Source: an uncultured Planctomycetia bacterium (GTDB lineage: Bacteria > Omnitrophota > Gorgyraeia > Pluralincolimonadales > Pluralincolimonadaceae). From it: a stretch of DNA of 64,000 bases. Below, in pieces: positions 328 to 61,897 of the stretch; position 1 is the first letter of the stretch; each line of letters begins with the position of its first letter. The stretch is from contig CAZYUB010000002.1 in NCBI GenBank assembly GCA_964650515.1, forward strand, positions 12,708-76,707, given 5' to 3'. Below the pieces are notes generated by a model. The model worked only from the letters and a program-made list of their open reading frames with translations. It made no database searches and was not told the DNA's origin. The translations under genes were made by a program, and so were the position numbers.

Positions 328-351
328 ATGCGAAGAAGAGCGGAGGTTTAC

Positions 352-834: not shown

Positions 835-836
835 AT

Positions 837-3834: not shown

Positions 3835-4874
3835 AAAGGATATCCGTACCGCACGAGCGGTTATCGGTATTTATAAAGAAAGTGCTTCTGAATGCCGGGG
3901 TGCGCGAAGATGTTGCGTATCATGTCACTGAAGGACTCGTGCAAGCGTCATTAAGGGGCGTCGATTCCCACGGCATAAGGCTCTTTCCGCATTATATGGC
4001 GTCGGTAAAAGCCGGCAGGATAAATCCCGGCCCCGCATATAAGTTCGAGAGGACATCAGCCTCTACCGGAAAGTTCGACGCGGACCATACGTTCGGGCAC
4101 GCCGCGGGCATAGAGTCGGCGAGGAAGGCTGTGGAGCTCGCGAAGGAAGCGGGGACGGGCAGCATAGCCGTGTTCAATTCGACCCACTTCGGCGCGGCCG
4201 CATATTTCACGCTCGAGATAGCCAAACAGGGGATGATAGGGTTGAGTTTCACTCATGCGGATTCCCTGATGAAGACATATGCGGGCAAGAGGGCGTTCCT
4301 CGGGACGAACCCGATATCTTTCGCCGCGCCGGTGGAGGGCGAAGAGCCGTTCTGCCTAGACATGGCCACGACGCTTTATAATTTCAACAAGATAAAACAG
4401 CTGAGGGAGCGCAAGCATCCCGCACCGGAAGGCGTAGGCGCGGATACGGAAGGCAATGAGACGACGGATGCGGATAAGATATCGATGCTGCTTCCAATAG
4501 GCGGATACAAAGGATACGGCCTCAGCCTGATGGTGGAGGTGCTTTGCGGGATACTTACCGGCATGCCATATGGCCCGAATATATCGAGCATGTTCAAGGC
4601 GCCGTTATCGCAGAAAAGGTTCCTCGGACATTTTATTTGCGCCATGAGGATAGACTGCTTCCAGGAAGAGAAAGTGTTCAAGCGGCGCATGTCCGCGCTT
4701 TTGAATGAACTGAGGAATGAGCCTCCCATGGAGAAAGGGGTACCGGTGCAGGTGGCGGGAGACCCGGAGAAGAAGGCCGCCTCGGCAAGGATGAAAGAAG
4801 GGATACCGATGGCCGCGCAGGAGGCGGAGGCCTTCATGAAGTTATCCGCCGAATACGGGGTGGAATTCATATAG
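3831..4874 (+). CDS. Ldh_2 family (malate/L-lactate/L-sulfolactate-type) dehydrogenase
   Basis: 'GVDSHGIRLFPHYMASVKAG', 'HTFGHAAG', 'GSIAVFNSTHFGAAAYF' match the type-2 malate/L-lactate dehydrogenase fold; 347 aa. Confidence 0.6.
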   Translation: MKRISVPHERLSVFIKKVLLNAGVREDVAYHVTEGLVQASLRGVDSHGIRLFPHYMASVKAGRINPGPAYKFERTSASTGKFDADHTFGHAAGIESARKAVELAKEAGTGSIAVFNSTHFGAAAYFTLEIAKQGMIGLSFTHADSLMKTYAGKRAFLGTNPISFAAPVEGEEPFCLDMATTLYNFNKIKQLRERKHPAPEGVGADTEGNETTDADKISMLLPIGGYKGYGLSLMVEVLCGILTGMPYGPNISSMFKAPLSQKRFLGHFICAMRIDCFQEEKVFKRRMSALLNELRNEPPMEKGVPVQVAGDPEKKAASARMKEGIPMAAQEAEAFMKLSAEYGVEFI

Positions 4875-6520: not shown

Positions 6521-7563
6521 TAAAGGAAGCACTGCTTGGCGCGGATTACAGGTTCGACGGGGCGCGGGCGCCCGAATCGCTGAGCAGCCCGCAGAATGAG
6601 GCGAGGGAGCTCTTCCTTAAGGAAATCCACGCGAGGGGAAGATACATCGACGTAGAAAGATGCCCTTTCTGCGGGGCGACGGAGTTCACTAAGATATCGG
6701 AAAGGGACGCGAGGGGGCTGCCGTGCGAAGTGGCCGTCTGCGACGCCTGCGGCGGTTGCTTCAAGAACAGGATATTGGACCCGGAGGCGAACAGGTACCT
6801 ATACGAGAAGATATCATACAAGCTTAGAGGCAAGGACCGTTCTCCCGGTGCGGTAGAAGCGCTGTTCAGGAAAAGGATAAAGGAATTCGCCTACCCGAGA
6901 TACGGGTTCATAAGGCATTTCGCCGAACTGGAGCAGGATATGGACCTTATCGCCGAATTCGGCTGCGGCGACGGAGCGAACCTGGTCCCGTGGAGGAATG
7001 ACGGTTTCAGCGTGACAGGCATCGAGTTCGACGGCGGAATGGTCGAGTTCGGCAAAAGCAAGGGGCTCGACCTCGTTCAGGGCGATTTCATGACTCACGA
7101 CCTCGGAGGGGCGAGGCCGAAGCTTATAATACTGTCGCACCTGCTTGAGCATGTATCGGACATGGACGCGGTCTTATCGCGCATACATTCCGTGCTCGAC
7201 CCTTACGGATACCTTTTCATAGAAGTGCCGGGCGTGAAAGGACAGGGCCTTGGCAGGCCGTTATCTTCGTTCGATGTTGAGCACAATTACTATTTTGACC
7301 TCGAAAGCCTTTCGTCGGCGCTGGGGAAGAACAGGTTCTCCGTGGCTTACGGAGACGAATATATAAGGATGATCTGCAGGCCGGCCGGCGCGCAGATCGC
7401 GGGACCGCAGAATAAGAAGGCCGGCGCGCGAAGGTTGTTGGACCTGTTCAGGCGAGAGGAGTCGGGAAGCATCAGGGCGAAGGTCATGAACAGGCTGACC
7501 GGCGCGTACTTCAAGGCGTATTATTCGATATTATCGTCAGGAGTCGGACATGGCAAAGCGTAA
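6517..7563 (+). CDS. class I SAM-dependent methyltransferase with N-terminal Zn-ribbon
   Basis: 'CPFCG...C..CG' zinc ribbon, then SAM motif I 'IAEFGCGDGANL'; GTGA start overlap. Confidence 0.6.
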   Translation: MIKEALLGADYRFDGARAPESLSSPQNEARELFLKEIHARGRYIDVERCPFCGATEFTKISERDARGLPCEVAVCDACGGCFKNRILDPEANRYLYEKISYKLRGKDRSPGAVEALFRKRIKEFAYPRYGFIRHFAELEQDMDLIAEFGCGDGANLVPWRNDGFSVTGIEFDGGMVEFGKSKGLDLVQGDFMTHDLGGARPKLIILSHLLEHVSDMDAVLSRIHSVLDPYGYLFIEVPGVKGQGLGRPLSSFDVEHNYYFDLESLSSALGKNRFSVAYGDEYIRMICRPAGAQIAGPQNKKAGARRLLDLFRREESGSIRAKVMNRLTGAYFKAYYSILSSGVGHGKA

Positions 7564-8287
7564 ATGCAGGACGGTCGCAATGATACCCGCGCGCATGGGC
7601 AGCACGAGGCTCGCTATGAAGAACCTCGCGTTGATAGGCGGGAAACCGATGATCTACTACGCGATAAAGGCGGCGAAGGATTCGGGCGTATTCGACAGGG
7701 TGGTCATAAATTCGGAAGACAGCGTATTCGCGAAGATAGCGAAGCGTTACGGCGCGGAATTCTACCTGCGCCCGCGGGAATGGGCGACCTCGGCCGCGAA
7801 ATCAGATTACGTGGTATATGATTTCGTCAGGAATAACCCGTGCGATGTGGTCGCGTGGGTCAACCCGACGTCGCCGCTGCAGACTGCGGACGAGGTAAGG
7901 GGCGCCATGGAATATTTCGAAAAAAAGAAGCTCGATTCGATGATAACCGTCAAGGACGAGCAGGTCCATTGCGTATATAAAGGAAAGCCGGTCAATTTCA
8001 AGCTGAAGGAGGTCTTCGCGCAGACGCAGGACCTCGTCCCTGTACAGCCCTTCGTATATTCGGTGATGGCATGGAAGACGGGAAGGTTCATGAAAGAGTT
8101 CGAAAAAAAGGGTTTTGCGTTCTTTTGCGGTAAGACGGGGTATTACCCGGTAAGCAAGCTCGCGGGCATAATAATCAAAAGGCAGGAAGACCTGATGGCC
8201 GCGGACCTTATACTGCGGTCTATCTCAAAAAAAGGCGGGTACAAGCTGCGATACGACAAGCTCGCCGTAAAGGGCAGGAGAGGATAA
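7550..8287 (+). CDS. acylneuraminate/CMP-ulosonic acid cytidylyltransferase (CTP_transf_3, NeuA/PseF/LegF-like)
   Basis: 'VAMIPARMGSTRLAMKNLALIGGKPMIYYAIKAA...FDRVVINSED...AKRYGAEFYLRP' matches the CMP-NeuAc synthetase N-terminal fingerprint. Confidence 0.7.
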   Translation: MAKRKCRTVAMIPARMGSTRLAMKNLALIGGKPMIYYAIKAAKDSGVFDRVVINSEDSVFAKIAKRYGAEFYLRPREWATSAAKSDYVVYDFVRNNPCDVVAWVNPTSPLQTADEVRGAMEYFEKKKLDSMITVKDEQVHCVYKGKPVNFKLKEVFAQTQDLVPVQPFVYSVMAWKTGRFMKEFEKKGFAFFCGKTGYYPVSKLAGIIIKRQEDLMAADLILRSISKKGGYKLRYDKLAVKGRRG

Positions 8288-8288
8288 T

Positions 8289-9641
8289 TTGGGAAAGCTC
8301 GCTTCTATCATAATCAGGACAAAGAACGAGGAGCGCTGGATAACGCAGTGCCTGCACGGCGTATTCGAGCAGGAATACAGGGATCTCGAGGTCATACTCG
8401 TGGATAACGAAAGCGAGGACAAGACGCTCGAGAAGGCTGGGCAGTTCAAACTTGCGAAAGTCGTGAAATGCACAGAATACCTGCCGGGCAAAGCCCTCAA
8501 CATCGGAATAAGGGAATCGAAGGGGGATTATATAGTATGCCTCTCGGGCCATTGCATACCCGTGAACTCGAAGTGGCTCGGGAACTTGCTGAAGGACCTC
8601 GATGACCCCGGGGTGGCAGGCGTATACGGCAGGCAGGAGCCGATGAGCTTTACCCCCGATTCCGACAAGCGGGACCTTACGCTCGTCTTCGGGCTCGACA
8701 GGAAGGTCCAGCAGAAGGACAGCTTTTTCCACAACGCGAACAGCGCGATGAGAAAAGAGACCTGGCGGAAATACCCGTTCAATGAGGCCGTCACGAATAT
8801 CGAGGACAGGGTCTGGGCGAAAAAGGTCCTCGAACAGGGATATAAGATAATATATGAGCCGGAGGCGAGCGTATACCATTACCACGGTATACACCAGAAC
8901 AGCAACGAACAGCGCTGCTCGAACGTCGTGAAGATAATGGAGAAGCTCCATGCAGGATTCAGCAGGAAGCCGATAGACATGGAGAAGATGGACGTCGCGG
9001 CGATAATACCGGTAAAGGGCGCGGCGAGGTATGTCGGGGATGCGCCGCTCATCGAATACACGATAAAGAGGGCCAAGGGATCGAAGTACATAAATAACGT
9101 GATAGTCTCCACGGATAACGAAGAGACCGGGCAGTTGGCGAGGAAGCTGGGCGCGAACGTGCCGTTCATAAGGGACCCTTCGCTCTCGAAAGAGAATATC
9201 GACCTCGCGCAGGTCCTGCGGTATACGATGAAGAAGCTCGAGGAGTCGCGCATACTTCCGGATATCGTCGTCCTGCTGGAGGTCACGTTCCCGTTCAGGC
9301 CCGAGGGCCTGCTCGACGACATGATCGCGCAGCTCGCGGAAGGCGGGTTCGACAGCGTCGTCGCGGCGAAGAAGGAGAACAAGGCGATATGGCAGCAGAA
9401 GGACGGTGTCATATCGCAGATAGAGGAAGGCATAACCCCGAGGCAGTTCAAGGAGCCCACGTATATAGAGTTGAAGGGTGTGGGCTGCGTGACGCATCCG
9501 GAGTTCCTCAGGGAAGGCAAGCTCCTCGGTGAGAAGGTGGGCATCTACGAACTGGACAACCCGTATTCGCACCTCGAGGTCAGGAGCGAGGAGGATTATA
9601 AGCTCGCGTCATCGCTCATAAAGGAGGTATTCGGGAGGTAA
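8289..9641 (+). CDS. bifunctional protein: N-terminal GT2 glycosyltransferase fused to C-terminal CTP_transf_3 cytidylyltransferase domain
   Basis: N-terminus 'ASIIIRTKNEERWITQCL...VILVDNESED' (GT2). C-terminus 'VAAIIPVKGAARYVGDAPLIEYTIKRA...VIVSTDNEETGQLARKLGANVPFIRD' (NeuA-like). TTG start with GGAGAGGA RBS. Confidence 0.6.
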   Translation: MGKLASIIIRTKNEERWITQCLHGVFEQEYRDLEVILVDNESEDKTLEKAGQFKLAKVVKCTEYLPGKALNIGIRESKGDYIVCLSGHCIPVNSKWLGNLLKDLDDPGVAGVYGRQEPMSFTPDSDKRDLTLVFGLDRKVQQKDSFFHNANSAMRKETWRKYPFNEAVTNIEDRVWAKKVLEQGYKIIYEPEASVYHYHGIHQNSNEQRCSNVVKIMEKLHAGFSRKPIDMEKMDVAAIIPVKGAARYVGDAPLIEYTIKRAKGSKYINNVIVSTDNEETGQLARKLGANVPFIRDPSLSKENIDLAQVLRYTMKKLEESRILPDIVVLLEVTFPFRPEGLLDDMIAQLAEGGFDSVVAAKKENKAIWQQKDGVISQIEEGITPRQFKEPTYIELKGVGCVTHPEFLREGKLLGEKVGIYELDNPYSHLEVRSEEDYKLASSLIKEVFGR

Positions 9642-11491
9642 TGGCTTTTTCCGGCGTTAAAAAGCTCGTATTCATCAACGGCATAAACGAGGCCGAAGCT
9701 TACATGGATGGCCGTCCCGCGGAAGATGCCGCCGGCGATACGCTCCTGATAGCGATGAACCCGTCTATCCGTGCGCGCCTGAAGAGAAAGGGGTTTCACG
9801 CTGCCGATACCGCGGACTATTTCACGACGGATTCCCATGTGAATACCCTGCAGAAGTCGGATGAGCTTGTCAAATGGTTCGAGGCGAATGCCCGTTTCGC
9901 CGATACCGGGATGGGGGTCAGCAGCGCCTACAGGGATTTCTTCATATACTGGGCAAGGTTCGCAATGCATTACTGCATCTGGGCAATAGATATAGCATCC
10001 GCGGCGATTGAGGCACATAGGCCGGAGGCGGTATGCGCATACGGGGCGGGCGGTAAAGCGGCGGTGTCCAGCCTGTATATCGAGAACAGCGAAGGCTATT
10101 TCGGCCGCCTGGTAAGGGATACCGCGAAGGCGAAAGGCGCAGGATTCATAGACCTAGGGAATGGGGACGCCGAGGCCCGCAGGGAACAGGGACCGCGCGC
10201 AATATACATGAAGTCGCTGGTAAGGTTCATCCTGCAGAACATAAAGTTCTCTTTATGGGAGGCCTCCGTATGGGCAAAGAACATATTCCCGGGCAAGAAG
10301 CCGGTATTCTTCACGACGAGGTTCTATAACCTCGACAAGCTCGCGAAGGAATCGGTAAAGGACGGCAGCGGCAAGAGGCCGGAGATACTGAGGGGGCCGG
10401 TAATATTCACATACGGCCTGTCTGACGCGGTCATAAAACTGTTCGGCGGCGCGTATTCCGCCGCTATAATATCGCAGAAGAAGAACTTCGCGGAGCTCGT
10501 CGAAAAGATGAGGAAAGACCCCTCGGTATTCTCCTACAAGGGGGTATCGTTCGCGGAGGCCGTCTCGGGCAAGATCGAGGATAACCTCGGCGACCATATA
10601 ATGGGCCTTATGCTGTGGACCGTGAAACTCAATGATTTTGTCGACAGGTCGAAGGCGTCATTGTTCGTCTCCAACGGCAACAGGGCGGACGATGTGATAC
10701 TGGCGGAATTATGCGCGAGGAAAGGTGTAAGGACGTTGCTGATAAGCCACGGTTCGCATGTCCGGCCTAAGAACGTCCCTGAGAGGATAGAATGGGGCGA
10801 GCACGGAAGGGCGCTTCTGAGGGCGCCGTTCTCGGATATCGCGCTGCAGACGCCCGTCGCGGAAGGATACGTCGATGCCTTCAAGACGGAAAGCAGGATG
10901 ATCAGGACCGGCCCTCTCATATGGGGAAAACCGGTGGAACGCAGGAAGAGCGGCGTGAGGACTATCGTGCATGCAGGCACGCCGAAGGCGGCGAACAGCT
11001 TAAGGCCGTTCGTCTACGAGACGCCCGATGAGTACATACGCGGCATATGCGAGCTCGCCGCGGCCGTGGAGGGGATACCCAATGCGGCGCTTATCGTGCG
11101 TTTCAGGCCGTCCTCGGATATAGGGATTGAAGATATCAGGGAACTCGTGCCATTTTCCGATAAAGTGAAGCTCAGCACAGACGGGCCTTTTTCGGCAGCG
11201 CTCGGAGCTGCGGACCTGCTGGTAAGCTTCTCATCTACGACGATAGAGGAAGCCCTGCAGAACAGGATACCCGTCCTTCTTTACGGAGGTTCGGGGCGCT
11301 ATATGCACATAGAAGCTGTCGAGGCGGGAAGCAACGGCGAAATGCCGCGGTCGGCGATATACCATGTGAGTAAGGCCGGCGACCTTAGACCTGCAATAGA
11401 GAAGATCCTCGGCCTAGGAACGGACGGTAAACTGTTCGACGAATATATATACCCTGAAAACGAAAGGCAACCGCTGGAGGCGCTATTATAA
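9641..11491 (+). CDS. hypothetical protein with GT-B-like C-terminal half (candidate CMP-sugar or CDP-alcohol dependent transferase)
   Basis: 616 aa. C-terminal 'AALGAADLLVSFSSTTIEEALQNRIPVLLYGG' resembles the GT-B C-domain helix-loop. Paralogous architecture to 837..2669 and 17197..18633. Confidence 0.35.
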   Translation: MAFSGVKKLVFINGINEAEAYMDGRPAEDAAGDTLLIAMNPSIRARLKRKGFHAADTADYFTTDSHVNTLQKSDELVKWFEANARFADTGMGVSSAYRDFFIYWARFAMHYCIWAIDIASAAIEAHRPEAVCAYGAGGKAAVSSLYIENSEGYFGRLVRDTAKAKGAGFIDLGNGDAEARREQGPRAIYMKSLVRFILQNIKFSLWEASVWAKNIFPGKKPVFFTTRFYNLDKLAKESVKDGSGKRPEILRGPVIFTYGLSDAVIKLFGGAYSAAIISQKKNFAELVEKMRKDPSVFSYKGVSFAEAVSGKIEDNLGDHIMGLMLWTVKLNDFVDRSKASLFVSNGNRADDVILAELCARKGVRTLLISHGSHVRPKNVPERIEWGEHGRALLRAPFSDIALQTPVAEGYVDAFKTESRMIRTGPLIWGKPVERRKSGVRTIVHAGTPKAANSLRPFVYETPDEYIRGICELAAAVEGIPNAALIVRFRPSSDIGIEDIRELVPFSDKVKLSTDGPFSAALGAADLLVSFSSTTIEEALQNRIPVLLYGGSGRYMHIEAVEAGSNGEMPRSAIYHVSKAGDLRPAIEKILGLGTDGKLFDEYIYPENERQPLEALL

Positions 11492-11492
11492 A

Positions 11493-13298
11493 ATGAGACC
11501 CGAAAGGAAAGTCAACGCAGTATGGTTCTTCCTGAAACGCTACAAGCGCATCTACGTGACGATGCTTTTAGTCACGATAGGATATTCCGTGCTCGAGAGC
11601 GTGAATATATCGATGTTCCTTCCGCTCTTCACGTCGGTCGTGGGGGAGAGCGCCGAGACGGCCGGAAAGTTCTTCCGGATAATGGAGGGCATCATATCGC
11701 TGATGCCGTTCGGGAACAGGTTCCTGAACATATGCGTGTTGATAGTGGTGCTGCTCGTGGTCAAGGAGATACTCGGATTCGTCAGGCACGTGCTGATCGG
11801 CTACGGGATAGGCAGGGTCATAACCGACGTCAAGGAAGAGATCTTCAACAAGTACGTCAATTCGGATTACCAGTTCTTCCTCGACAACAAGCAGGGCAGG
11901 CTCCTCTATAATATGCTTACGGCCACCGGACGCCTCGGCAGCTGCCTGCAGTTCATACCCGATTTCATAAACGCGATGCTGATGACGGTAAGCATAGGCG
12001 CGCTGCTCTTCTCGATGTCGTTCGGGGTGACGATGGTGCTCCTCGTAGCGGGCCTGGCTTTCAATCTCCTTACGCAGATACTGGCCAAACGCGTCTCTTA
12101 CCACATAGGGACGGAGAGGGCGACCGTCAGCACCGAAGCGAACGTCATAGCGAACGAGGTGATAGACGGGATAAAGCATATAAAGGTCTTCGGTTCGTCG
12201 GAGTTCTGGAGGCATAATTTCGAGCGATCGGTAAGGCGCTTCAAGACCCTCGTCATAGAGGATTTCGTATGGATAGGCATCCCCGAAAGGGTAATGCAGC
12301 TGCTTCCCGCGGCGATGCTTATAATGGTTGCCATATTCTTCAGGCATTTCAGCAAAGGCCCGGACGCCGATCAGGCGTTTTCCGCCAAGATAGCGCTTGT
12401 GGGCGTATATGCGTACGCGTTCTACAGGCTAATCCCTTTCCTGACGTCATTCGGAAGGCTGCGTATGCAGATAATGGGCGCGCTTCCCGAGGTCGAGCTA
12501 TTGTACGACGACCTGCATGAGGACACGAACAGGATCAAGGACGGCAATACGAAGATAGACGGGTTCAGGAAGGAACTGGCGTTCAGGGACGTGAGCTTCA
12601 ATTACAAGGGGAAGAAGGAGATACTTAACGGCGTCTCCTTCAATATCGAAAAGGGCAAGACCACCGCCATCGTGGGCGCCTCCGGAAGCGGCAAGACAAC
12701 GCTGATAAACCTCATTGTAAGGCTCTTCGTGCCTGACGAAGGCAGGATAACCCTGGACGGGACAGACCTGAGGGACATCAAGTACGCCTCGCTTATCAAG
12801 CTCATCGGGATGGTAAGCCAGGACACGTTCATATTCAACGCGACGATAAAGGAGAATATCATCTTCGGCCTTAAGGCAGTGACGCACGAACGGCTTGTCA
12901 ACGCGTGCAAGCTGGCCAACGCGCATGATTTCATAAGCAATTTCCCCGAAGGCTACGAGACGGTCGTCGGCGATAAGGGATTGAAGCTGTCGGGCGGGCA
13001 GAGGCAGAGGATAGCCATTGCGCGCGCGATAATCAGGGACCCGGAGATACTGATACTCGACGAGGCGACGAGCTCGCTCGATTACCATTCCGAGGCGATA
13101 GTGCAGGAGGCCATAAACGAGGTATCGAAGAACAGGACGGTCATAGTCGTAGCGCACAGGCTTTCCACGGTGATCGACGCGGACAAGATAATAGTCATGG
13201 ACAAGGGCAGGATAGTAGAGGAAGGGACGCATGCCGCGCTTATAAAGAAAGAAGGGGTCTACAGGGCTTTATATGAAAGACAGCAAAAAACGATATAA
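11493..13298 (+). CDS. fused TMD-NBD ABC exporter (MsbA/PglK-like, candidate lipid-linked glycan flippase)
   Basis: Six predicted N-terminal TM helices, Walker A 'GASGSGKTT', ABC signature 'LSGGQRQRIAIARA', Walker B 'ILILDEATS', H-loop 'VIVVAHRLS'. Confidence 0.85.
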   Translation: MRPERKVNAVWFFLKRYKRIYVTMLLVTIGYSVLESVNISMFLPLFTSVVGESAETAGKFFRIMEGIISLMPFGNRFLNICVLIVVLLVVKEILGFVRHVLIGYGIGRVITDVKEEIFNKYVNSDYQFFLDNKQGRLLYNMLTATGRLGSCLQFIPDFINAMLMTVSIGALLFSMSFGVTMVLLVAGLAFNLLTQILAKRVSYHIGTERATVSTEANVIANEVIDGIKHIKVFGSSEFWRHNFERSVRRFKTLVIEDFVWIGIPERVMQLLPAAMLIMVAIFFRHFSKGPDADQAFSAKIALVGVYAYAFYRLIPFLTSFGRLRMQIMGALPEVELLYDDLHEDTNRIKDGNTKIDGFRKELAFRDVSFNYKGKKEILNGVSFNIEKGKTTAIVGASGSGKTTLINLIVRLFVPDEGRITLDGTDLRDIKYASLIKLIGMVSQDTFIFNATIKENIIFGLKAVTHERLVNACKLANAHDFISNFPEGYETVVGDKGLKLSGGQRQRIAIARAIIRDPEILILDEATSSLDYHSEAIVQEAINEVSKNRTVIVVAHRLSTVIDADKIIVMDKGRIVEEGTHAALIKKEGVYRALYERQQKTI

Positions 13299-14997
13299 AG
13301 AATTCGAGATCCTTGATTGTACTATCAGGGACGGCGGTTACCTCAACGACTGGAAGTTCGATAAGGCGCTTGTCAGGGAGGTTTATAGGGCCGTCTCGAA
13401 AGCGGGTGTGCCTGTCATCGAGATAGGGTTCAGGGGGACGGATGAGCATTTCGACAGGAAGAGGTACGGCCCCTGGAGGTTCTCGGACGAGTTGTTGCTG
13501 CGCGAGACGATCGAAGGGATAGACGGCGCGAAACTCGCCCTGATGGGTGACTTCGGCAGGATATCGGCGGACGACTTTGTCCCGCGCGACGAGAGCGTTG
13601 TCGATATCGTGAGGATAGCGGCCCATAAGAACGATATAGCGGAAACTATCAAGACCCTCGGCAGGATAAAGAAGAAGGGCTATAAGACATCGCTTAATGC
13701 GATGGGATACAGCAACTACACGAAATCGGAACAGAAGAAGTTCGTCTCGATGGTCAGGAAGGCGGGCCTCGATTATGTATATGCGGTGGACAGCTACGGT
13801 TCGGTCTTCCCGAACGAGATAGAAGGGCTCATCAGCCCGCTGCTCGGCATACGCGGGACGAAGGTCGGGTTCCATCCGCATAACAGCCTGCAGATGGCGT
13901 TCGCGAACACGCTTGAGGCGGTCCGCTGCGGCGCGGATATAGCCGATTCTACGTTCTACGGCATTGGCCGCGGGGCGGGCAACCTGCCGACCGAAATAAT
14001 CGTACTCTATAAGGAACTTTTAGGCGATAAGAAATATAACGCGATCCCGGTCCTCAATTGCATAGACAGGTACTTCCTGCCGATGAGGAAGGAGATTGAC
14101 TGGGGATACCAGCTGCCGTTCATGCTCTCGGGGATGTACAAATGCCACCCGAACTACGCGAGCGGCCTGATAAATTACAGGGAATATACGATAGACGAGA
14201 TATGCAAGGCGATGGAGGCCATTGAGAAGAGGAACCCGTTAGGATACAAGCCGGAGATATTAAAGGAGATCATAGAGGACGGGCTTATCGGGAAGCTGAA
14301 GACCTCCTCCGTCACGAAGAAGGCGGGGAAGGCCAGGAAAACCGGGGCATCAGTGCCGTATGCGGGAAGGCATGAAGGCAGGGATTTCCTGGTGCTGGCC
14401 AACGGGCCCGGCCTGAAGGATAACAGGGAGAAGATAGAGGCGTTCATAAGGAAGACGGACCCCGTCATACTCGGTGCTAACAACCTCTCGGGGCTGTTCG
14501 TCCCGCATTATCACGCGTTCAACAACAAGAGGAGGTTCACGGATTACGCCGGTACCGTATCCGGGAAGTCGAAACTCCTCATAAGCGAATATTTCCCGGA
14601 TGAGTTCATCAGGGAATACACGGACAGGGACTACGAGAAACTGTATTATAACGATGTCCTGAACGCGCATTTCGGCATCGATGACGGGGTCATACGGACG
14701 AATTGCAGGACGATATCGGTCCTGCTTATCGGCGCGGCGATAGTAATGGGCGCCAGGAGGATATTCGTCGCCGGGATGGACGGCTACCTCGGCCCGGGCA
14801 CAGAGGGCAAGGCCCTCTATTACAACGAGAAAGACGAAAAGACCGACAAGCAGATGATCATCGAGAGGCATATGTGGTGCCAGAAGTTCCTGGAGGAGAT
14901 CGAGGCATACCTGCAGAAGAACGGCAGGGAGGGTATCCATATCATAACGCCCACGACCTACAAGGCGTTCTATAAAAGCGTGGAAAATTACATATGA
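13273..14997 (+). CDS. DRE-TIM (HMGL-like) pyruvate aldolase domain fused to MptE-like/DUF115 (Maf-type) domain
   Basis: N-terminus 'ILDCTIRDGGY', 'FHPHNSLQMAFANTLEAVRCGA', 'GIGRGAGNLPTE' match DmpG/HMG-CoA lyase/IPMS metallo-aldolases. C-terminus 'FLVLANGPGLKDNREKIEAF...PVILGANN' resembles DUF115/6-hydroxymethylpterin diphosphokinase MptE-like. Confidence 0.55.
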   Translation: MKDSKKRYKEFEILDCTIRDGGYLNDWKFDKALVREVYRAVSKAGVPVIEIGFRGTDEHFDRKRYGPWRFSDELLLRETIEGIDGAKLALMGDFGRISADDFVPRDESVVDIVRIAAHKNDIAETIKTLGRIKKKGYKTSLNAMGYSNYTKSEQKKFVSMVRKAGLDYVYAVDSYGSVFPNEIEGLISPLLGIRGTKVGFHPHNSLQMAFANTLEAVRCGADIADSTFYGIGRGAGNLPTEIIVLYKELLGDKKYNAIPVLNCIDRYFLPMRKEIDWGYQLPFMLSGMYKCHPNYASGLINYREYTIDEICKAMEAIEKRNPLGYKPEILKEIIEDGLIGKLKTSSVTKKAGKARKTGASVPYAGRHEGRDFLVLANGPGLKDNREKIEAFIRKTDPVILGANNLSGLFVPHYHAFNNKRRFTDYAGTVSGKSKLLISEYFPDEFIREYTDRDYEKLYYNDVLNAHFGIDDGVIRTNCRTISVLLIGAAIVMGARRIFVAGMDGYLGPGTEGKALYYNEKDEKTDKQMIIERHMWCQKFLEEIEAYLQKNGREGIHIITPTTYKAFYKSVENYI

Positions 14998-15728
14998 AAA
15001 TAATCGGGGTAATACCGGCGCGTTTCAAGTCATCGAGGTTTCCCGGCAAGCCGTTGGCGGATATATGCGGAAAGCCGCTCGTATGGTGGGTATATAAACA
15101 GGCCGAGAAGGTAAAAGAACTCGGGAAGGTCTATGTCGCTACGGATGACGGCAGGATAGCCCGGGTATGCAAAAAGCTCGCGATACCGTATGTGATGACC
15201 TCGGGCAGGCACCAGACAGGCACGGACAGGGTCGCCGAGGTCGCGAGGAAGGTCAAAGCGGATATTTACGTGAATATACAGGGGGATGAACCCCTGCTGA
15301 AACCCGCTATGATAAGAAGCGCGATAGGACCCCTTTTGAAAAAGAATTCCGGATTCGATGTTACGAACCTGATGTCTTTAATACGCAACCCGAAGGAGGT
15401 ACCGAGCCCGACCGTCCCGAAGGTCGCGGTGAGCGCGAAGGGCGACGCCGTATTCCTCTCGAGGGCGCCGATACCTTATCCGAAGAGGGGCGGCTACGCG
15501 CAGTATTATAAGCAGGTCTGCGTATACGGGTTCAGGAGGAAGGCGTTATTGGCGTTCGGCGGGCTTTCGAGAGGGGCTTCCGAGCTTATAGAGGATATCG
15601 AGCTGCTGCGCTTTATAGAGAACGGCATAAAGGTCAGGATGATCGAAGTGAAAAGCGGCAGCATGGCGGTTGATACTCCTGAGGACCTGAAGGCGGTAAA
15701 AAAGATAATATGCAAAAACCGGGCGTAA
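14994..15728 (+). CDS. 3-deoxy-manno-octulosonate cytidylyltransferase-like (CMP-Kdo synthetase family, KdsB-like)
   Basis: 'IIGVIPARFKSSRFPGKPLADICGKPLVWWVY...GKVYVATDD...VNIQGDEPLL' is the classic KdsB N-terminal pattern; 244 aa. Confidence 0.7.
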   Translation: MKIIGVIPARFKSSRFPGKPLADICGKPLVWWVYKQAEKVKELGKVYVATDDGRIARVCKKLAIPYVMTSGRHQTGTDRVAEVARKVKADIYVNIQGDEPLLKPAMIRSAIGPLLKKNSGFDVTNLMSLIRNPKEVPSPTVPKVAVSAKGDAVFLSRAPIPYPKRGGYAQYYKQVCVYGFRRKALLAFGGLSRGASELIEDIELLRFIENGIKVRMIEVKSGSMAVDTPEDLKAVKKIICKNRA

Positions 15729-17206
15729 TATTCATCAACCCGTCGCTTGCGCAGGATGGGGGCAAATGCGACGAAGTGCTGTTCCCGTTCGCTGCCATCA
15801 TGCTGCTCGCGACGATCCTCGACAAGTCGGGGTATGATGTCACGATCATCGACGGCAATATGTATACGTCGGCGGAATGCATCGGTAAGGTCCGCGCGGC
15901 GGTCAACGAAAACACGGTCTTCGCGGGATTTTCCGTGATGACCTCGCAGGTCAAATGGGCTTATGAAGTGGCCGGCGCGCTCAAGAAGTCGCATCCGGGC
16001 CTTAAGATAGTGTGGGGAGGGGTGCACGCGACCTTATACCCGGAACAGACGATCGCGGACCCGCTTATAGACATAATAGCCGTCAATGAGGCGTGCAGTT
16101 CGATAGCGATGCTCGCAGAGGCGTTGAAGAACGGCGGCGGCCTCTCGAACGTGCCCGGCATATATTTCAAGAAGGACGGAAAAACGATAAAGAACGCGCC
16201 GTACCTGCCTGATGACATCACGAAGATACCGCAGATCGATTTCTCTCTTTTCGATGCGCTCCGCTACGCCAGGAACAACCTGCTCCCGAAGGCATACGAC
16301 CTTCCGCTAAAGGATGCAGTGATGATGCCCATAATAACGGGGCTCGGATGCGCTTATAAGTGCTCGTTCTGCATAAACGTCATCCTGAACAGGAAATACC
16401 GGTATATGGAAGCGAAGGAGATAGTGGACAGGATAGAATTCCTGCAGAAGGAATACGGAGCGAACTTCTTCCAGCTGCTCGACGAGGACTTCTTCATAAA
16501 CAAGAAGAGGACGATGGATTTCATCGAGCTTGTCGAGAAGAGGGGGCTTAAGTTCTATTTCAGACCGTGGATGCGCGTATCGTATTTCAGGGACAACTAC
16601 ATTTCTGAAGAGGTCGCGAAACGGCTCGAGAAGATAGGCATGGTCACGGCGGTGATGGGGGCCGAGTGCGGCTCGCAGGCGATGCTGGATAAGATACATA
16701 AGCAGATAAAAGTGGAAGACACCGTGAACGCGGCGAGGACGCTTTCGAAGACGCGGATCGTGCCGAGGTATTCGATGATGGTAGGGCTTCCGGGAGAGAC
16801 GAAGGAAGATATACTGGCTACCTACCGGCTCGCGCTGAAGCTGAAAGATATAGACTGCAGGTCGGATATACCGATACTCAGTTTTGCCGCGTATCCCGGT
16901 TCGCCGATATACAGCGAAGCGGTCAGGAAATACGACCTGAAGGAACCCGGCAGCCTTGCGGAATGGGCAGCCCTCGACTTCTCGGGTTTCCTCGGATTCT
17001 ATTCCGCGCAGGGCAAGCCGTGGATATTCGACAGGAAGATATTCGAGAGGATGAACAATTATTACAATATCGGCTTCCAGTTCTCGCCGAGAAAGACATT
17101 GCGCAACAAAGTGCTCTACCCGCTGCTAAGATCGCTGATCAGGTTCAGGTTCGTTACAGGATGGTTCGGGTTCCCGGTCGAGGAGTTCATACTCGGATGC
17201 CGTTAA
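15710..17206 (+). CDS. B12-binding domain radical SAM protein
   Basis: N-terminal B12-binding region and 'TGLGCAYKCSFC' CxxxCxxC; C-terminal 'AAYPGSPIYSEA' as in the paralogues. Confidence 0.7.
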   Translation: MQKPGVIFINPSLAQDGGKCDEVLFPFAAIMLLATILDKSGYDVTIIDGNMYTSAECIGKVRAAVNENTVFAGFSVMTSQVKWAYEVAGALKKSHPGLKIVWGGVHATLYPEQTIADPLIDIIAVNEACSSIAMLAEALKNGGGLSNVPGIYFKKDGKTIKNAPYLPDDITKIPQIDFSLFDALRYARNNLLPKAYDLPLKDAVMMPIITGLGCAYKCSFCINVILNRKYRYMEAKEIVDRIEFLQKEYGANFFQLLDEDFFINKKRTMDFIELVEKRGLKFYFRPWMRVSYFRDNYISEEVAKRLEKIGMVTAVMGAECGSQAMLDKIHKQIKVEDTVNAARTLSKTRIVPRYSMMVGLPGETKEDILATYRLALKLKDIDCRSDIPILSFAAYPGSPIYSEAVRKYDLKEPGSLAEWAALDFSGFLGFYSAQGKPWIFDRKIFERMNNYYNIGFQFSPRKTLRNKVLYPLLRSLIRFRFVTGWFGFPVEEFILGCR

Positions 17207-18633
17207 CCGATTCCACGAAAAGATTGGTGGAGGAGTGCGCGGGCCTGAACGCGCGTACCGCTGGGCGGCTCGGCCCCGGGCTCGGATTCCTTGTATGGGC
17301 ATCCCCGACGGCATACAGGGACCCGGAAGATACGAAACTCTGGCATCCGGTATATCTTGAAAAGCCGGTTGCGTATAAGCTTCCCGCGCTTTGCTGCATG
17401 TACCTGCGTTATGCGCTAATAGGGGTAATAAGGTGTTTCGCTTACAGGGGTTTCTCCTACGCATACAGGGAGAAAAGAGCGCCGGTGCTTATCGTGATGG
17501 CTGAGGAGATAACGGACCATTCAAAGGAGTTCAGCACCGATTATATAATCGAAGATACTTCGCATCATGAAGACAAACTCGTCTTCTCGAGGACAAAAAT
17601 CATCGGCAGCAACTATACTGCGCTGGGCTTCTGGAAGAAGATGGTGATCGGAGAGAAGCTGGAAATGGCGCTGATCGCCGATTTCATCCGGAAACTATTG
17701 GCGGGACGCCTGAGCATGGCATACATGGAATCGCTGGCCATATTCCACAGGTGGGTGATATCTTATTCCTGGTGTTTTCATTATGATTTCTACATGCTGG
17801 TGCATAAGGTGCTCAGCCGCGAGCCTGCGGAATACCGTTCGGTGTTCGTACCGCATGAGATGCATTTCTATTCAAGGATGGTCTGGAAAGCGGCTAAAGA
17901 GCTGAATGTAAAAGGCATTACCGCGCAGCATGCGATGATATTGCCCGAGAAGCTGTGGTATTTTCCCGAGGCCGCCGAAGTTAGGGCCGGGTGCGCCCTT
18001 CCGGACATATTCTATGTTTACAGCGAGGGTATAAAAGCCCTACTCGGCAGGTACTACCCGGGCACGGACCTCCGGCTTTGCTGCAGCCCGAGGTTCAGGA
18101 AATGGAAGGACTCCGGCAGGCTGGACAGGTCGCGCGCTGACGCGGTAACGTTCGTATGCGGGATAATGGAGTATGACACCGCGATAATCGTGGAAGCGGC
18201 AAAGACATTGCTTGCGGAGGAATATAAGGATAAGAGGAAGATCCGGCTTCGGCTGCATCCCGCCGGTATAATAGGCAGGGAACAGAGGGATTGGATAGAA
18301 GCGGCATCCAAGACAGGCTCGATAGAGCTGTCGAAGGTGCAGCTCAAGGAGGAATTTGAGTTGTCTAGGCTGATAATAGGATCGAACTCCGCGGTGCTGC
18401 AGGAAGCGGTGCTTTCGGGCGTGCCGGCGCTCGCCCTAACCAGCAGGGAATATATATGCGCGTCCGTCCTTCCCGACGAAGATAAATGGACCATAGACGT
18501 ATCGCGGTTATCATGGAAACGGGTAGAAGAGCAATCCGCCAGGACGCCGGACCAGGACACGACACGCCGGTTCAGGGCAAACATGGGGCTCGACAACCCT
18601 GACCTGACCACGGCAACGGTGGCCGCGGCATGA
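17197..18633 (+). CDS. hypothetical protein, capsule-polysaccharide-biosynthesis (KpsC/KpsS-like) or other GT-B-like transferase candidate
   Basis: Most plausible start is ATG 17197, with GAGGAG 11 nt upstream. The 16963 extension is a spurious in-frame read-through. C-terminal 'LIIGSNSAVLQEAVLSGVPALALTS' resembles the Capsule_synth/GT-B motif. Confidence 0.35.
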   Translation: MPLTDSTKRLVEECAGLNARTAGRLGPGLGFLVWASPTAYRDPEDTKLWHPVYLEKPVAYKLPALCCMYLRYALIGVIRCFAYRGFSYAYREKRAPVLIVMAEEITDHSKEFSTDYIIEDTSHHEDKLVFSRTKIIGSNYTALGFWKKMVIGEKLEMALIADFIRKLLAGRLSMAYMESLAIFHRWVISYSWCFHYDFYMLVHKVLSREPAEYRSVFVPHEMHFYSRMVWKAAKELNVKGITAQHAMILPEKLWYFPEAAEVRAGCALPDIFYVYSEGIKALLGRYYPGTDLRLCCSPRFRKWKDSGRLDRSRADAVTFVCGIMEYDTAIIVEAAKTLLAEEYKDKRKIRLRLHPAGIIGREQRDWIEAASKTGSIELSKVQLKEEFELSRLIIGSNSAVLQEAVLSGVPALALTSREYICASVLPDEDKWTIDVSRLSWKRVEEQSARTPDQDTTRRFRANMGLDNPDLTTATVAAA

Positions 18634-24552: not shown

Positions 24553-24558
24553 TAAGCC

Positions 24559-25401: not shown

Positions 25402-25417
25402 TCTAGGGAGGTTAGAG

Positions 25418-27391: not shown

Positions 27392-27392
27392 T

Positions 27393-61893: not shown

Positions 61894-61897
61894 ATAA

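What the first reader, a model, noticed from the sequence alone, without database searches (positions are those of the whole stretch)
13273..15728. DRE-TIM pyruvate-aldolase domain fused to an MptE/Maf-like domain, followed by a KdsB-like CMP-transferase: possible alternative ulosonic-acid route
13273..14997 starts with textbook HMGL/DmpG-type motifs: DCTIRDGG, HPHN...AN, GIGRGAGN. These belong to metal-dependent pyruvate/acetyl-CoA aldolases, not to the PEP-dependent KdsA/NeuB synthases normally used for Kdo or nonulosonic acids. The C-terminal half resembles DUF115/MptE-like domains, as in Maf proteins of flagellin Pse/Leg glycosylation. The next gene, 14994..15728, is KdsB-like. A KdsC-like phosphatase (352..834) and two NeuA-like cytidylyltransferase domains (7550..9641) are also present, but no KdsA/NeuB is visible. 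Together this suggests a 3-deoxy-2-ulosonic acid made by pyruvate aldol addition, then CMP activation.
Basis: partly seen in the sequence, partly recalled or inferred. Interest (0 to 1): 0.75.

Follow-up and report, generated by a model that had tools for sequence, protein, structure and literature searches.

The report
Pyruvate-aldolase fused to sialyltransferase-like domain
An uncultivated Omnitrophota bacterium encodes one protein that joins a metal-dependent pyruvate-aldolase-type domain to a small sialyltransferase-like (Maf/MptE) domain, next to a CMP-Kdo-synthetase-like gene; this conserved, uncharacterised module probably makes, activates and transfers an unusual acidic keto-deoxy sugar without the usual PEP-dependent synthase.

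Summary

The fusion is a real, widespread, unnamed family found in Omnitrophota, anammox bacteria, Desulfobacterota, Chloroflexi and DPANN/methanogen archaea. It sits in a conserved module of fusion, HAD phosphatase, KdsB-like gene and a GT-B protein.

Stand-alone copies of the C-domain also lie next to this KdsB-like subtype, together with an HpcH aldolase, an MR/MLE dehydratase or NeuB. That pairs the domain with CMP-ulosonate chemistry. It also places the DRE-TIM domain in the synthase position.

Caveats:
- The aldolase catalytic His is an invariant Tyr.
- The KdsB-like sugar-domain motifs differ from canonical KdsB, so the sugar is probably not Kdo.
- Many loci carry a second aldolase, and some carry NeuB.
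- Nothing has been shown biochemically.

Verdict: interpretation partly supported; a new variant of a known kind; interest about 0.6.

The parts
13273..14997 (+). Fusion ORF (574 aa): DRE-TIM aldolase-like domain, linker, Maf/MptE-like domain
   Evidence: One uninterrupted ORF. At least 860 homologues, and the top 120 are nearly all the same length (about 560-611 aa) with 98-100% coverage. Both halves are highly conserved in 44 homologues.
13303..14232 (+). N-domain (aa 11-320): HMGL-like TIM barrel plus helical extension, 'RDGGY' subfamily
   Evidence: PF00682 E 1.5e-21. 3DXI 'putative aldolase' E 2e-37 over aa 11-317; DmpG/HsaF-type aldolases E 1e-17 to 1e-19; homocitrate/IPMS synthases E 1e-10 or weaker. 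D15, R19, H201 and H203 are invariant; Tyr23 replaces the catalytic His.
14260..14346 (+). Lys-rich flexible linker (aa 330-358)
   Evidence: pLDDT below 50 for residues 1-29 of the C-domain model. Variable in length and sequence among homologues.
14347..14994 (+). C-domain (aa 359-574): Maf / MptE / sialyltransferase-like nucleotide-binding fold
14994..15728 (+). KpsU/KdsB-like cytidylyltransferase (244 aa); start overlaps the stop of the fusion ORF
   Evidence: PRK13368 289.8 bits (above cutoff 255) and TIGR00466 158.7 bits (above 155.2). KpsU 1GQ9 E 4e-53 over the full length. GKP, QGDEP and VDTP motifs kept, but KH(V/I)GIYAY becomes KQVCVYGF and LEQLR becomes IELLR.
17197..18633 (+). GT-B fold protein (478 aa), a distant member of the roughly 600-aa family that follows the KdsB-like gene in other loci
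15710..17206 (+). B12-binding radical SAM enzyme inserted between the KdsB-like gene and the GT-B gene
   Evidence: PF04055 and PF02310. Same position in L087/L088 and similar in L009, L015 and L020.
9641..11491 (+). Conserved upstream partner (616 aa, no family), homologue of the roughly 640-aa protein that precedes the fusion in anammox loci
   Evidence: BLASTP against L001 unk638: E 6e-77, 28% identity over the full length. Profile E 6e-134. Weak DUF6716 'putative glycosyltransferase' hit.
11493..13298 (+). ABC exporter (fused TMD-NBD); a strain-specific insertion between the 616-aa gene and the fusion
   Evidence: ABC_membrane and ABC_tran. Absent at this position in the 96%-identical locus L087/L088. 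ABC genes occur near the fusion in 6 other loci.
328..834 (+). KdsC/YrbI-type HAD phosphatase
   Evidence: NCBIfam Kdn-9-P phosphatase 97 bits, KdsC 92.8 bits, TIGR01670 90 bits, all below their cutoffs. It is the only HAD in the window. Other loci have a HAD_2 next to the fusion or the KdsB-like gene.
7550..9641 (+). Two further CTP_transf_3 genes: a PseF-like gene (7550-8287) and a GT2+CTP_transf_3 fusion (8289-9641)
   Evidence: The same pair is conserved in L001, L018 and L087/L088.
2662..4874 (+). GFO/IDH/MocA oxidoreductase (2662-3834) and Ldh_2 2-oxoacid/2-hydroxyacid dehydrogenase (3831-4874), part of the conserved upstream 'module 2'
   Evidence: Same order in L001 and L087/L088. Ldh_2 is replaced by 2-Hacid_dh in Scalindua L003.

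Best explanation
The ORF most likely encodes a bifunctional enzyme of surface-glycan synthesis.

N-domain (inferred). It is a divalent-metal, class-II (DRE-TIM) pyruvate aldolase of a distinct 'RDGGY' subfamily. It would condense pyruvate with a polar, probably phosphorylated, aldose to give a 4-hydroxy-2-oxo acid, that is, a 3-deoxy-2-ulosonic acid phosphate.

Next steps (inferred). A HAD phosphatase removes the phosphate: the KdsC-type HAD at 328-834 here, and a HAD_2 inside the module elsewhere. The adjacent KpsU-like cytidylyltransferase makes the CMP-ulosonate.

C-domain (inferred). The fused Maf/sialyltransferase-like domain transfers the sugar to a glycan acceptor. The GT-B protein downstream is a further transferase or a precursor-forming enzyme.

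This parallels KdsA-KdsC-KdsB-transferase, with a pyruvate aldolase in place of the PEP-dependent synthase.

Shown here: domain identities, intact metal- and pyruvate-binding residues, conserved synteny, and absence of NeuB/KdsA in the window.

Inferred: reaction direction, the substrates, the identity of the sugar, and the transferase activity. The sugar is probably a KDG-like or other non-Kdo ulosonate.
For: Domains:
- Searches place the N-domain nearest DmpG-type aldolases (121.5 bits, against 64.7 for IPMS).
- D15, R19, H201 and H203 are invariant in 44 homologues.
- The HsaF segment L-M-L aligns to target M91-G92-D93, with M91 and D93 invariant. From memory, the equivalent BphI residues Leu87/Leu89 line the aldehyde pocket. 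An Asp there suggests a polar acceptor.
- The C-domain is Maf-like by fold and by Pfam in 29 of 30 orthologues.
- Maf_flag10 enzymes use CMP-Neu5Ac and CMP-Kdo donors experimentally (PMC11339370; bioRxiv 10.1101/2020.06.03.131540).

KdsB-like gene:
- It passes the NCBIfam kdsB cutoffs and keeps K19 and the two Mg-binding Asp residues (PMC3149649).

Synteny:
- The KdsB-like gene lies within 6 genes of the fusion in 17 of 29 loci; 4 loci are truncated.
- Counts in those loci: HAD_2 in 14 by BLAST plus 3 by Pfam, and the GT-B family in 14.
- The Micrarchaeota locus L021 has only GT4, fusion, KdsB-like, HAD_2 and GT-B, with no NeuB, KdsA or HpcH on its 12.6-kb contig.
- The PfkB genes next to the KdsB-like gene are KDG/KDGal-kinase-like.

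Stand-alone C-domain homologues sit with the same KdsB-like subtype plus one other enzyme:
- an HpcH aldolase (L090),
- an MR/MLE acid-sugar-dehydratase-type enzyme (L094),
- or NeuB (L096).

No NeuB or KdsA occurs in the 50 window ORFs scanned, although the window holds three CTP_transf_3 genes.
Against: - The residue aligned to the catalytic base of DmpG/BphI/HsaF (RDGsH) is an invariant Tyr. The protein fails the curated cutoffs of the aldolase equivalogs.
- 11 of 29 loci also encode an HpcH/HpaI-type pyruvate aldolase, often with an LdpA-like Fe-S protein, which could be the actual synthase.
- NeuB lies within 10 kb in about 8 loci.
- 8 assessable loci have the fusion but no KdsB-like gene nearby.
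- A pyruvate aldol reaction is reversible, unlike the PEP-driven synthases.
- The genome outside the window was not examined.
- There are no biochemical data for any member.
Confidence: 0.45

Rival explanations
1. The C-domain and the KdsB-like gene form the transfer and activation pair, but the DRE-TIM domain is not the primary synthase. The ulosonic acid comes from another enzyme: an HpcH aldolase where present, NeuB, or a housekeeping KdsA or ED-pathway KDG elsewhere in the genome. The N-domain does a different 2-oxo-acid reaction, for example retro-aldol/aldol epimerisation or chain editing of the ulosonate, or synthesis of a second pyruvate-derived unit.
For: HpcH/HpaI aldolase is present in 11 of 29 loci, typically directly upstream of the KdsB-like gene. 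In L090 an HpcH gene directly abuts the KdsB-like gene with no DRE-TIM present. NeuB occurs in about 8 loci. The catalytic His is replaced by Tyr. Two KdsB-like sequence subtypes correlate with presence or absence of the LdpA/HAD/HpcH trio.
Against: The window, Scalindua L003, Micrarchaeota L021, L027, L039 and L015 have the fusion and the KdsB-like gene without any HpcH. All of these except L015 also lack NeuB on the DNA seen. The metal, Arg and pyruvate-site residues are invariant, so the domain is catalytically constrained. DPANN archaea are not expected to make Kdo for LPS (general knowledge).
Confidence: 0.3
2. The C-domain is an MptE-type ATP-dependent (pyro)phosphokinase, not a glycosyltransferase. 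It phosphorylates the aldolase substrate or product, and the HAD and KDG-kinase-like genes belong to the same phosphate handling.
Confidence: 0.12
3. The N-domain is a Claisen-type condensing enzyme (IPMS, homocitrate or citramalate synthase-like). It would use acetyl-CoA and a 2-oxo acid to make a branched hydroxy-dicarboxylic acid substituent for the glycan.
For: IPMS, homocitrate and citramalate synthase models hit aa ~120-250 (E 7e-18 to 1e-10). The window also has Ldh_2 and GFO oxidoreductases acting on 2-oxo or 2-hydroxy acids.
Against: Aldolase models score about twice as high and cover the whole barrel. The RDG(E/N)Q motif of the condensing enzymes (from memory) is RDGGY here. The C-terminal subdomains of IPMS/HCS that complete the acetyl-CoA site are absent.
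Confidence: 0.08
4. It is an ordinary catabolic 4-hydroxy-2-oxovalerate aldolase, as automatic annotation says.
For: JGI names many homologues '4-hydroxy 2-oxovalerate aldolase'.
Against: It scores far below the equivalog cutoffs (101.5 against 286). There is no DmpG communication domain, no DmpF-type acetaldehyde dehydrogenase and no meta-cleavage genes. The catalytic His is lost. The gene always lies in glycan clusters and is fused to a Maf-like domain.
Confidence: 0.02

Closest known systems
DmpG / BphI / HsaF 4-hydroxy-2-oxovalerate aldolases (class II, DRE-TIM metallolyases; PDB 1NVM, 4JN6, 4LRS)
   Same: Same fold and the best-scoring characterised relatives. The Asp/His/His metal ligands and the Arg that stabilises the pyruvate enolate are conserved. 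The products are 4-hydroxy-2-oxo acids, the same skeleton as open-chain ulosonic acids.
   Different: The catalytic His is replaced by Tyr. The hydrophobic aldehyde pocket L-x-L is M-G-D here. There is no DmpG_comm domain and no partner dehydrogenase. The context is biosynthetic glycan genes, and the domain is fused to a Maf-like domain. Scores fall below the equivalog cutoffs.
PDB 3DXI 'putative aldolase' (structural genomics; 320-aa chain)
   Same: Closest solved relative (E 2e-37, aligned to aa 11-317). It shares DCTxRDGGY, W27, GxGRGAGN and the WG..LPxMLSG extension.
   Different: The deposited chain and its roughly 316-aa relatives here have no Maf-like domain. Those stand-alone relatives lie in unrelated neighbourhoods, often next to a KDPG/KHG aldolase in Omnitrophota. 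3DXI lacks D93, Y279 and C291-H292 of the fused subfamily. Its function is also unknown.
Maf (motility-associated factor) flagellin nonulosonic-acid glycosyltransferases (PF01973; PDB 5MU5)
   Same: Best structural match of the C-domain. Maf enzymes use CMP-activated ulosonic acids, including CMP-Kdo, and are encoded next to CMP-sugar synthetases.
   Different: Maf proteins are about 600 aa with extra N- and C-terminal flagellin-related domains. Here only the roughly 215-aa core is present, fused to an aldolase. There are no flagellin genes, so the acceptor is presumably a glycan or lipid-linked intermediate.
Canonical CMP-Kdo pathway KdsA-KdsC-KdsB(KpsU)-Kdo transferase, and the NeuB-NeuA sialic-acid pathway
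   Same: Same logic: synthase, then phosphatase, then CMP activation, then transfer. The KdsB-like gene is full-length and closest to KpsU. A KdsC-type HAD is present.
   Different: There is no PEP-dependent synthase (KdsA/NeuB) in the window; a pyruvate aldolase domain occupies that slot. The motifs KH(V/I)GIYAY and LEQLR of the KdsB sugar-binding domain are changed, so the sugar is probably not Kdo.
MptE (archaeal 6-hydroxymethyl-7,8-dihydropterin pyrophosphokinase; PDB 8SD5)
   Different: No pterin or folate-type genes are nearby. The domain consistently pairs with CTP_transf_3 and glycan genes.

Membership tests
DRE-TIM metallolyase superfamily / Pfam HMGL-like (PF00682) | HMM score above the gathering threshold | tested here: met
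   77.4 bits against a cutoff of 29, aa 11-246.
DRE-TIM metallolyase superfamily / Pfam HMGL-like (PF00682) | D-R-E-type signature: metal-binding Asp plus Arg on strand 1, and two His ligands (HxH) | tested here: met
   D15, R19, H201 and H203 align to the ligands of HsaF and 4LRS. They are invariant in 44 homologues.
DmpG/BphI-type 4-hydroxy-2-oxovalerate aldolase (TIGR03217, PRK08195) | Score above the curated equivalog or subfamily cutoff | tested here: not met
   101.5 bits against 286, and 121.5 bits against 229.
DmpG/BphI-type 4-hydroxy-2-oxovalerate aldolase (TIGR03217, PRK08195) | Catalytic His four residues after the Arg (RDGxH) | tested here: not met
   RDGGY: Tyr23 aligns to the His of HsaF and 4LRS and is invariant. 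The catalytic role of this His is recalled from the BphI literature.
DmpG/BphI-type 4-hydroxy-2-oxovalerate aldolase (TIGR03217, PRK08195) | C-terminal DmpG communication domain and an adjacent acylating aldehyde dehydrogenase (DmpF) | tested here: not met
   There is no such Pfam hit on the protein. No dehydrogenase of that type appears in the window or in 29 related loci.
Claisen-condensing DRE-TIM enzymes (IPMS / homocitrate / citramalate synthase) | Score above the curated cutoffs; RDG(E/N)Q motif | tested here: not met
   The best score is 64.7 bits against a cutoff of 517, and only aa ~120-250 align. The motif here is RDGGY.
Pfam MptE-like / Maf_flag10 (PF01973) | HMM score above the gathering threshold | tested here: inconclusive
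   The window copy scores 18.4 bits against a cutoff of 34.6. 29 of 30 orthologues hit at E <= 0.01, best 7.6e-8. PF01973 is precomputed for roughly half of the top 120 homologues.
Pfam MptE-like / Maf_flag10 (PF01973) | Fold of the Maf central domain / GT-A-variant sialyltransferase fold | tested here: met
Pfam MptE-like / Maf_flag10 (PF01973) | CMP-ulosonate-dependent glycosyl transfer (Maf), as opposed to ATP-dependent pyrophosphoryl transfer (MptE) | not testable with these tools
   Only indirect evidence: co-occurrence with CTP_transf_3 genes.
KdsB / KpsU CMP-Kdo synthetase (TIGR00466, PRK13368) | Score above the curated cutoffs | tested here: met
   158.7 bits against 155.2 (a narrow pass) and 289.8 bits against 255.
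KdsB / KpsU CMP-Kdo synthetase (TIGR00466, PRK13368) | Catalytic Lys19 and the two Mg-binding Asp residues | tested here: met
   GKP, QGDEP and VDTP align to KpsU and V. cholerae KdsB. Residue roles are from PMC3149649.
KdsB / KpsU CMP-Kdo synthetase (TIGR00466, PRK13368) | Kdo-specific sugar site in the C-terminal domain | tested here: inconclusive
   Motifs conserved in both PDB KdsB/KpsU sequences are changed. (K/R)H(V/I)GIYAY becomes KQVCVYGF or KMCFIVPF. LEQLR becomes IELLR or NEYLR. Nearly all fusion-linked copies (17 of the 18 loci copies aligned, plus the window) show such changes; L005 keeps the His and L013 is a divergent outlier. That these motifs contact Kdo is recalled from memory, not checked.
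PEP-dependent ulosonate synthases (KdsA PF00793, NeuB PF03102) | Presence of such a gene in the cluster | tested here: not met
   None among the 50 ORFs of window 1-59783. Not tested beyond the window. NeuB is present in some related loci.

The most novel reading that the evidence does not exclude
A DRE-TIM (class II, metal-dependent) pyruvate aldolase is a third, PEP-independent type of ulosonic-acid synthase. It is physically fused to its own Maf-like transferase and partnered with a specialised KdsB-like enzyme. Together they would make a previously undescribed CMP-activated short-chain 3-deoxy-2-ulosonic acid (KDG-like, C5-C7) for surface glycans. The system is spread across Omnitrophota, anammox Planctomycetes, Desulfobacterota, Chloroflexi and DPANN/methanogenic archaea.
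Probability: 0.35. Interest if true: 0.8.

Novelty: new variant of a known kind. Interest (0 to 1): 0.6.

Why it matters
Every established route to CMP-activated ulosonic acids (Kdo, sialic, pseudaminic, legionaminic acids) starts with a PEP-dependent KdsA/NeuB-type synthase. Genome surveys for these sugars rely on those markers.

If this module works as inferred, a large set of uncultivated bacteria and archaea make acidic keto-deoxy sugars by a different enzyme class. Current surveys would miss it.

It would also provide a compact synthase-transferase fusion and a new nucleotide sugar for glycoengineering.

Finally, it gives a testable function to three sizeable unnamed families:
- the 'RDGGY' aldolases, including the orphan structure 3DXI;
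- the small stand-alone MptE-like proteins;
- the Q-type KdsB-like enzymes.

Tried and rejected
- Literature: searches for the fusion (HMGL-like + MptE-like; DUF115 + aldolase; 4-hydroxy-2-oxovalerate aldolase + cytidylyltransferase + glycosylation; ulosonic acid + pyruvate aldolase + KdsB) found nothing relevant. The two anammox S-layer glycosylation papers do not mention these genes.
- Sequence profile of the C-domain against PDB: no hit even at E 10. Only fold comparison worked.
It is used as a lead only.
- Reaching DNA upstream of the window failed. Exact look-ups of P0001 and of the window's HAD are not on record. The metagenome scan with the PFTS protein found one short contig.
- The idea that the small gene after stand-alone 316-aa aldolases is a split-off C-domain was rejected. 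No C-domain profile hit occurs outside the fusions, and that neighbour is a KDPG/KHG aldolase.
- The 616-aa, 556/478-aa and 610-aa unknowns are not detectably similar by BLASTP. Only profiles link them to the families in other loci.
- Catabolic HOA-aldolase annotation: rejected by the membership tests.

Full report

Yes. ORF 13273-14997 is one uninterrupted 574-codon frame. It carries DCTIRDGG, HPHN and GIGRGAGN.

Pfam places aa 11-246 in HMGL-like (PF00682, E 1.5e-21). NCBIfam ranks the DmpG-type 4-hydroxy-2-oxovalerate aldolase models first: 121.5 and 101.5 bits, covering the whole barrel. The IPMS, homocitrate and citramalate synthase models score about half as much and cover only aa ~120-250. 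All of these lie below their curated cutoffs.

Against PDB sequences the order is:
- the orphan structural-genomics entry 3DXI 'putative aldolase' (E 2e-37, aligned to aa 11-317);
- four DmpG/HsaF-type aldolases (E 1e-17 to 1e-19);
- homocitrate synthase and others (E 1e-10 or weaker).

**2. The C-terminal half**

On its own it hits only PF01973 (MptE-like, formerly DUF115/Maf_flag10), and weakly: 18.4 bits against a cutoff of 34.6. But 29 of 30 orthologous C-domains hit that family, best E 7.6e-8. Roughly half of the top database homologues carry a precomputed PF01973 hit.

- SteA;
- thiamin pyrophosphokinases.

Foldseek gives the same set. The 'MptE/Maf-like' call is therefore confirmed by fold.

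Invariant residues fall in the motifs ANGP, GxN, YHxFxN..R, NC(RT), GxDGY and Y..E, plus a His about 28 residues after GxDGY. From memory, this order resembles the CMP-binding and catalytic motifs of CstII. The only computed support is a weak hhalign match of NCRT...GMDGY to NQRITSG...GIDFY.

**3. The neighbours in the window**

ORF 14994-15728 overlaps the fusion's stop codon. It is a full-length KdsB homologue:
- PRK13368 289.8 bits against a cutoff of 255, and TIGR00466 158.7 bits against 155.2;
- closest to the capsule enzyme KpsU (1GQ9, E 4e-53).

The catalytic Lys and the two Mg-binding Asp residues are kept (roles from PMC3149649).

The window is a glycan-synthesis cluster of more than 60 kb whose annotated genes all lie on the plus strand. 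It holds:
- five B12-radical-SAM genes or gene fragments;
- many GT2, GT4 and PMT_2 genes;
- NDP-sugar enzymes;
- an ABC exporter;
- a KdsC-type HAD (328-834);
- two further CTP_transf_3 genes.

None of the 50 ORFs scanned between 1 and 59783 is NeuB or KdsA. The truncated ORF at the window start looks like a radical-SAM C-terminus. I could not reach DNA outside the window.

The organism is a Candidatus Omnitrophota MAG. NCBI names the two proteins 'aldolase catalytic domain-containing protein' and 'KdsB'.

**4. The family and its context**

The fusion is not an assembly artefact. At least 860 database proteins match it, and the top 120 are nearly all about 560-611 aa with 98-100% coverage. 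A scan of one genome per species found full-length copies in these groups:
- Desulfobacterota/'Deltaproteobacteria', Chloroflexi, Omnitrophota, Planctomycetes;
- Clostridia, Elusimicrobia, Opitutales, Abditibacterium;
- Methanobacteriota and Micrarchaeota.

I mapped neighbours in 29 non-duplicate loci. The commonest order is:

fusion, LdpA-like Fe-S protein, HAD_2 phosphatase, HpcH/HpaI aldolase, KdsB-like gene, then a roughly 600-aa protein.

Shorter forms are fusion-KdsB-like (the window, Scalindua, Micrarchaeota, Opitutales) and fusion-HAD-KdsB-like.

Counts within six genes of the fusion:
- KdsB-like: 17 of 29 loci, four of which are truncated;
- HAD_2: 14 loci by BLAST, plus 3 more found by Pfam;
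- the roughly 600-aa family: 14 loci;
- HpcH: 11 loci;
- LdpA-like: 12 loci.

NeuB lies within 10 kb in about 8 loci. In three loci a PfkB kinase next to the KdsB-like gene is KDG/KDGal-kinase-like.

The window's 478-aa protein (17197-18633) is a distant member of the roughly 600-aa family. Its model (pLDDT 90) has a generic GT-B fold. It could not be resolved between a glycosyltransferase and a NeuC-type hydrolysing epimerase.

The Micrarchaeota locus L021 is the cleanest case. Its order is GT4, fusion, KdsB-like, HAD_2, GT-B, GT4, GT4. Nothing else on the 12.6-kb contig could make an ulosonic acid.

**5. Independent evidence on the C-domain**

A profile search of 1.84 billion representative proteins found 537 clusters. 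Many of them are stand-alone proteins of 205-265 aa. Four of their contexts could be read:
- L090: HpcH aldolase directly abutting a CTP_transf_3, then MT, 2-Hacid_dh, epimerase, cyclase and the MptE-like gene.
- L094: MptE-like, radical SAM, an MR/MLE enolase-superfamily enzyme (the family of acid-sugar dehydratases that form 2-keto-3-deoxy acids), CTP_transf_3.
- L096: CTP_transf_3, radical SAM, MptE-like, CTP_transf_3+HAD, NeuB.
- L092: no CTP_transf_3 on the visible part of the contig.

The CTP_transf_3 genes of L090 and L094 are 42-46% identical to the window's KdsB-like gene and share its variant motifs.

So the small Maf-like domain and this KdsB-like subtype travel together. The enzyme that could supply a 2-keto-3-deoxy acid varies between loci: a fused DRE-TIM aldolase, an HpcH aldolase, an MR/MLE dehydratase or NeuB.

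Maf_flag10 enzymes have been shown to transfer Neu5Ac and Kdo from their CMP donors (PMC11339370; bioRxiv 10.1101/2020.06.03.131540). Together, this makes 'CMP-ulosonate transferase' the best reading of the C-domain and 'supplier of the ulosonate' the best reading of the N-domain. The sample is small, at four contexts.

**6. What does not fit a simple 'DmpG-like aldolase makes Kdo' story**

*(a) The catalytic His.* The His that acts as catalytic base in BphI/DmpG (a role recalled from the literature) aligns to Tyr23, which is invariant. The motif RDGGY is shared with 3DXI and differs both from aldolases (RDGxH) and from Claisen enzymes (RDG(E/N)Q).

*(b) The aldehyde pocket.* The segment that aligns to HsaF L-M-L is M91-G92-D93 here, with M91 and D93 invariant. 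From memory, the equivalent BphI residues Leu87/Leu89 form the hydrophobic aldehyde pocket. The change suggests a polar acceptor such as a sugar or sugar phosphate.

*(c) The KdsB-like sugar domain.* Nearly all fusion-linked KdsB-like enzymes differ from KpsU and KdsB at two motifs of the sugar-binding domain.
- KH(V/I)GIYAY becomes KQVCVYGF or KMCFIVPF.
- LEQLR becomes IELLR or NEYLR.
- The two subtypes track absence or presence of the LdpA/HAD/HpcH trio. L005, which keeps the His, and the divergent L013 copy are the exceptions.

The sugars are therefore probably not Kdo, and there may be two different ones. The KDG-kinase-like genes, the MR/MLE context and the frequent HAD phosphatase point to a KDG-like or other short ulosonate made through a phosphorylated intermediate. 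This is inference.

*(d) Other possible synthases.* Where HpcH is present, it could be the synthase, and the DRE-TIM domain could do a second reaction.

*(e) The MptE alternative.* MptE-type pyrophosphokinase activity for the C-domain is not excluded.

**7. Stand-alone relatives of the N-domain**

About 316-aa proteins like 3DXI occur in Paenibacillus, Gracilibacillus and many Omnitrophota. They have no C-domain nearby and unrelated neighbours. In Omnitrophota they are typically followed by a gene of about 210 aa. In the one locus checked (L079), that gene is a KDPG/KHG aldolase. This is a further loose link to 2-keto-3-deoxy-acid metabolism. These proteins lack D93, Y279 and C291-H292 of the fused clade.

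**8. Verdict**

The domain calls and the absence of KdsA/NeuB in the window hold. The aldolase, then CMP activation, then (added here) Maf-like transfer scheme is the best-supported mechanism; I put it at about 0.45. It rests on comparative genomics and fold similarity only.

All the parts belong to known kinds. The architecture and the implied PEP-independent route would be a new variant of ulosonic-acid biosynthesis, in a large unnamed family. I found no paper describing it.

Noticed in passing
window 11493-13298 vs L087/L088: The ABC exporter gene between the 616-aa gene and the fusion is absent from a 96%-identical strain (230-kb contig), where the two genes are 12 nt apart. It is therefore a recent insertion, and its end overlaps the fusion's start by 26 nt.
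   Followed up: partly
window 1-327, 4874-6520, 15710-17206, 19556-21076, 43544-44992: Five B12-binding radical SAM genes (one truncated at the window edge) sit in one glycan cluster. B12-rSAM genes also recur next to the fusion and next to stand-alone MptE-like genes in other loci. They may C-methylate sugars, but their substrates are unknown.
   Followed up: no
window 8289-9641: A GT2 glycosyltransferase is fused to a CTP_transf_3 cytidylyltransferase domain (450 aa). It is conserved with the preceding PseF-like gene, an SAM-methyltransferase, Ldh_2 and GFO/IDH/MocA in Brocadiaceae (L001), in L018 and in L087/88. This looks like a second CMP-sugar module with no visible synthase.
   Followed up: partly
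L001, L006, L008, L010, L012, L022 etc. (related loci): An LdpA-like (circadian-clock Fe-S protein family) 4Fe-4S protein of about 337 aa is conserved between the fusion and HAD/HpcH in 12 loci. Its role in a sugar pathway is unexplained.
   Followed up: no
KdsB-like genes of window, L001-L039, L090, L094: There are two sequence subtypes of KdsB-like enzyme: KQVCV(Y)/IELLR and KMCFIVPF/NEYLR. The second subtype co-occurs with the LdpA/HAD/HpcH trio. This suggests two different non-Kdo sugars.
   Followed up: partly
L062, L069, L075, L077-L080, L084 (Omnitrophota): A stand-alone 316-aa 'RDGGY' aldolase (3DXI-like) is regularly followed by a gene of about 210 aa. In L079 that gene is a KDPG/KHG aldolase (Eda).
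   Followed up: partly
L090 1009-6769 and L096 3778-9744: A recurrent gene set is 2-Hacid_dh, NmrA/3beta-HSD-type epimerase, Cyclase (PF04199, fused to HAD_2 in L096) and CTP_transf_3, next to stand-alone MptE-like genes. It may be another uncharacterised CMP-acid pathway.
   Followed up: no
window 1-4000 and 20000-30000: GC content drops to 0.45-0.48 from 0.53-0.57 elsewhere, which suggests a mosaic cluster. All annotated genes lie on the + strand with overlapping stop and start codons, and GC skew is strongly positive throughout.
   Followed up: no
window 837-2669, 39230-40765, 49794-51896: These are large ORFs (610, 511 and 700 aa) with no Pfam family. The first has a weak hit to NCBIfam TIGR04417, 'polysaccharide biosynthesis PFTS motif protein'. 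Relatives of the downstream ~600-aa GT-B gene in other loci (e.g. L001) hit TIGR04326 (LIC13510 family), and LIC12162-family genes also occur in related loci. These are the only links to Leptospira-named surface-carbohydrate families.
   Followed up: no
L094 756-3488: A 910-aa radical SAM protein with a faint LAGLIDADG hit, possibly an intein, lies next to a stand-alone MptE-like gene.
   Followed up: no
window 59799-62863: Three ORFs (163, 398 and 321 aa) at the end of the window were not scanned against any family library.
   Followed up: no
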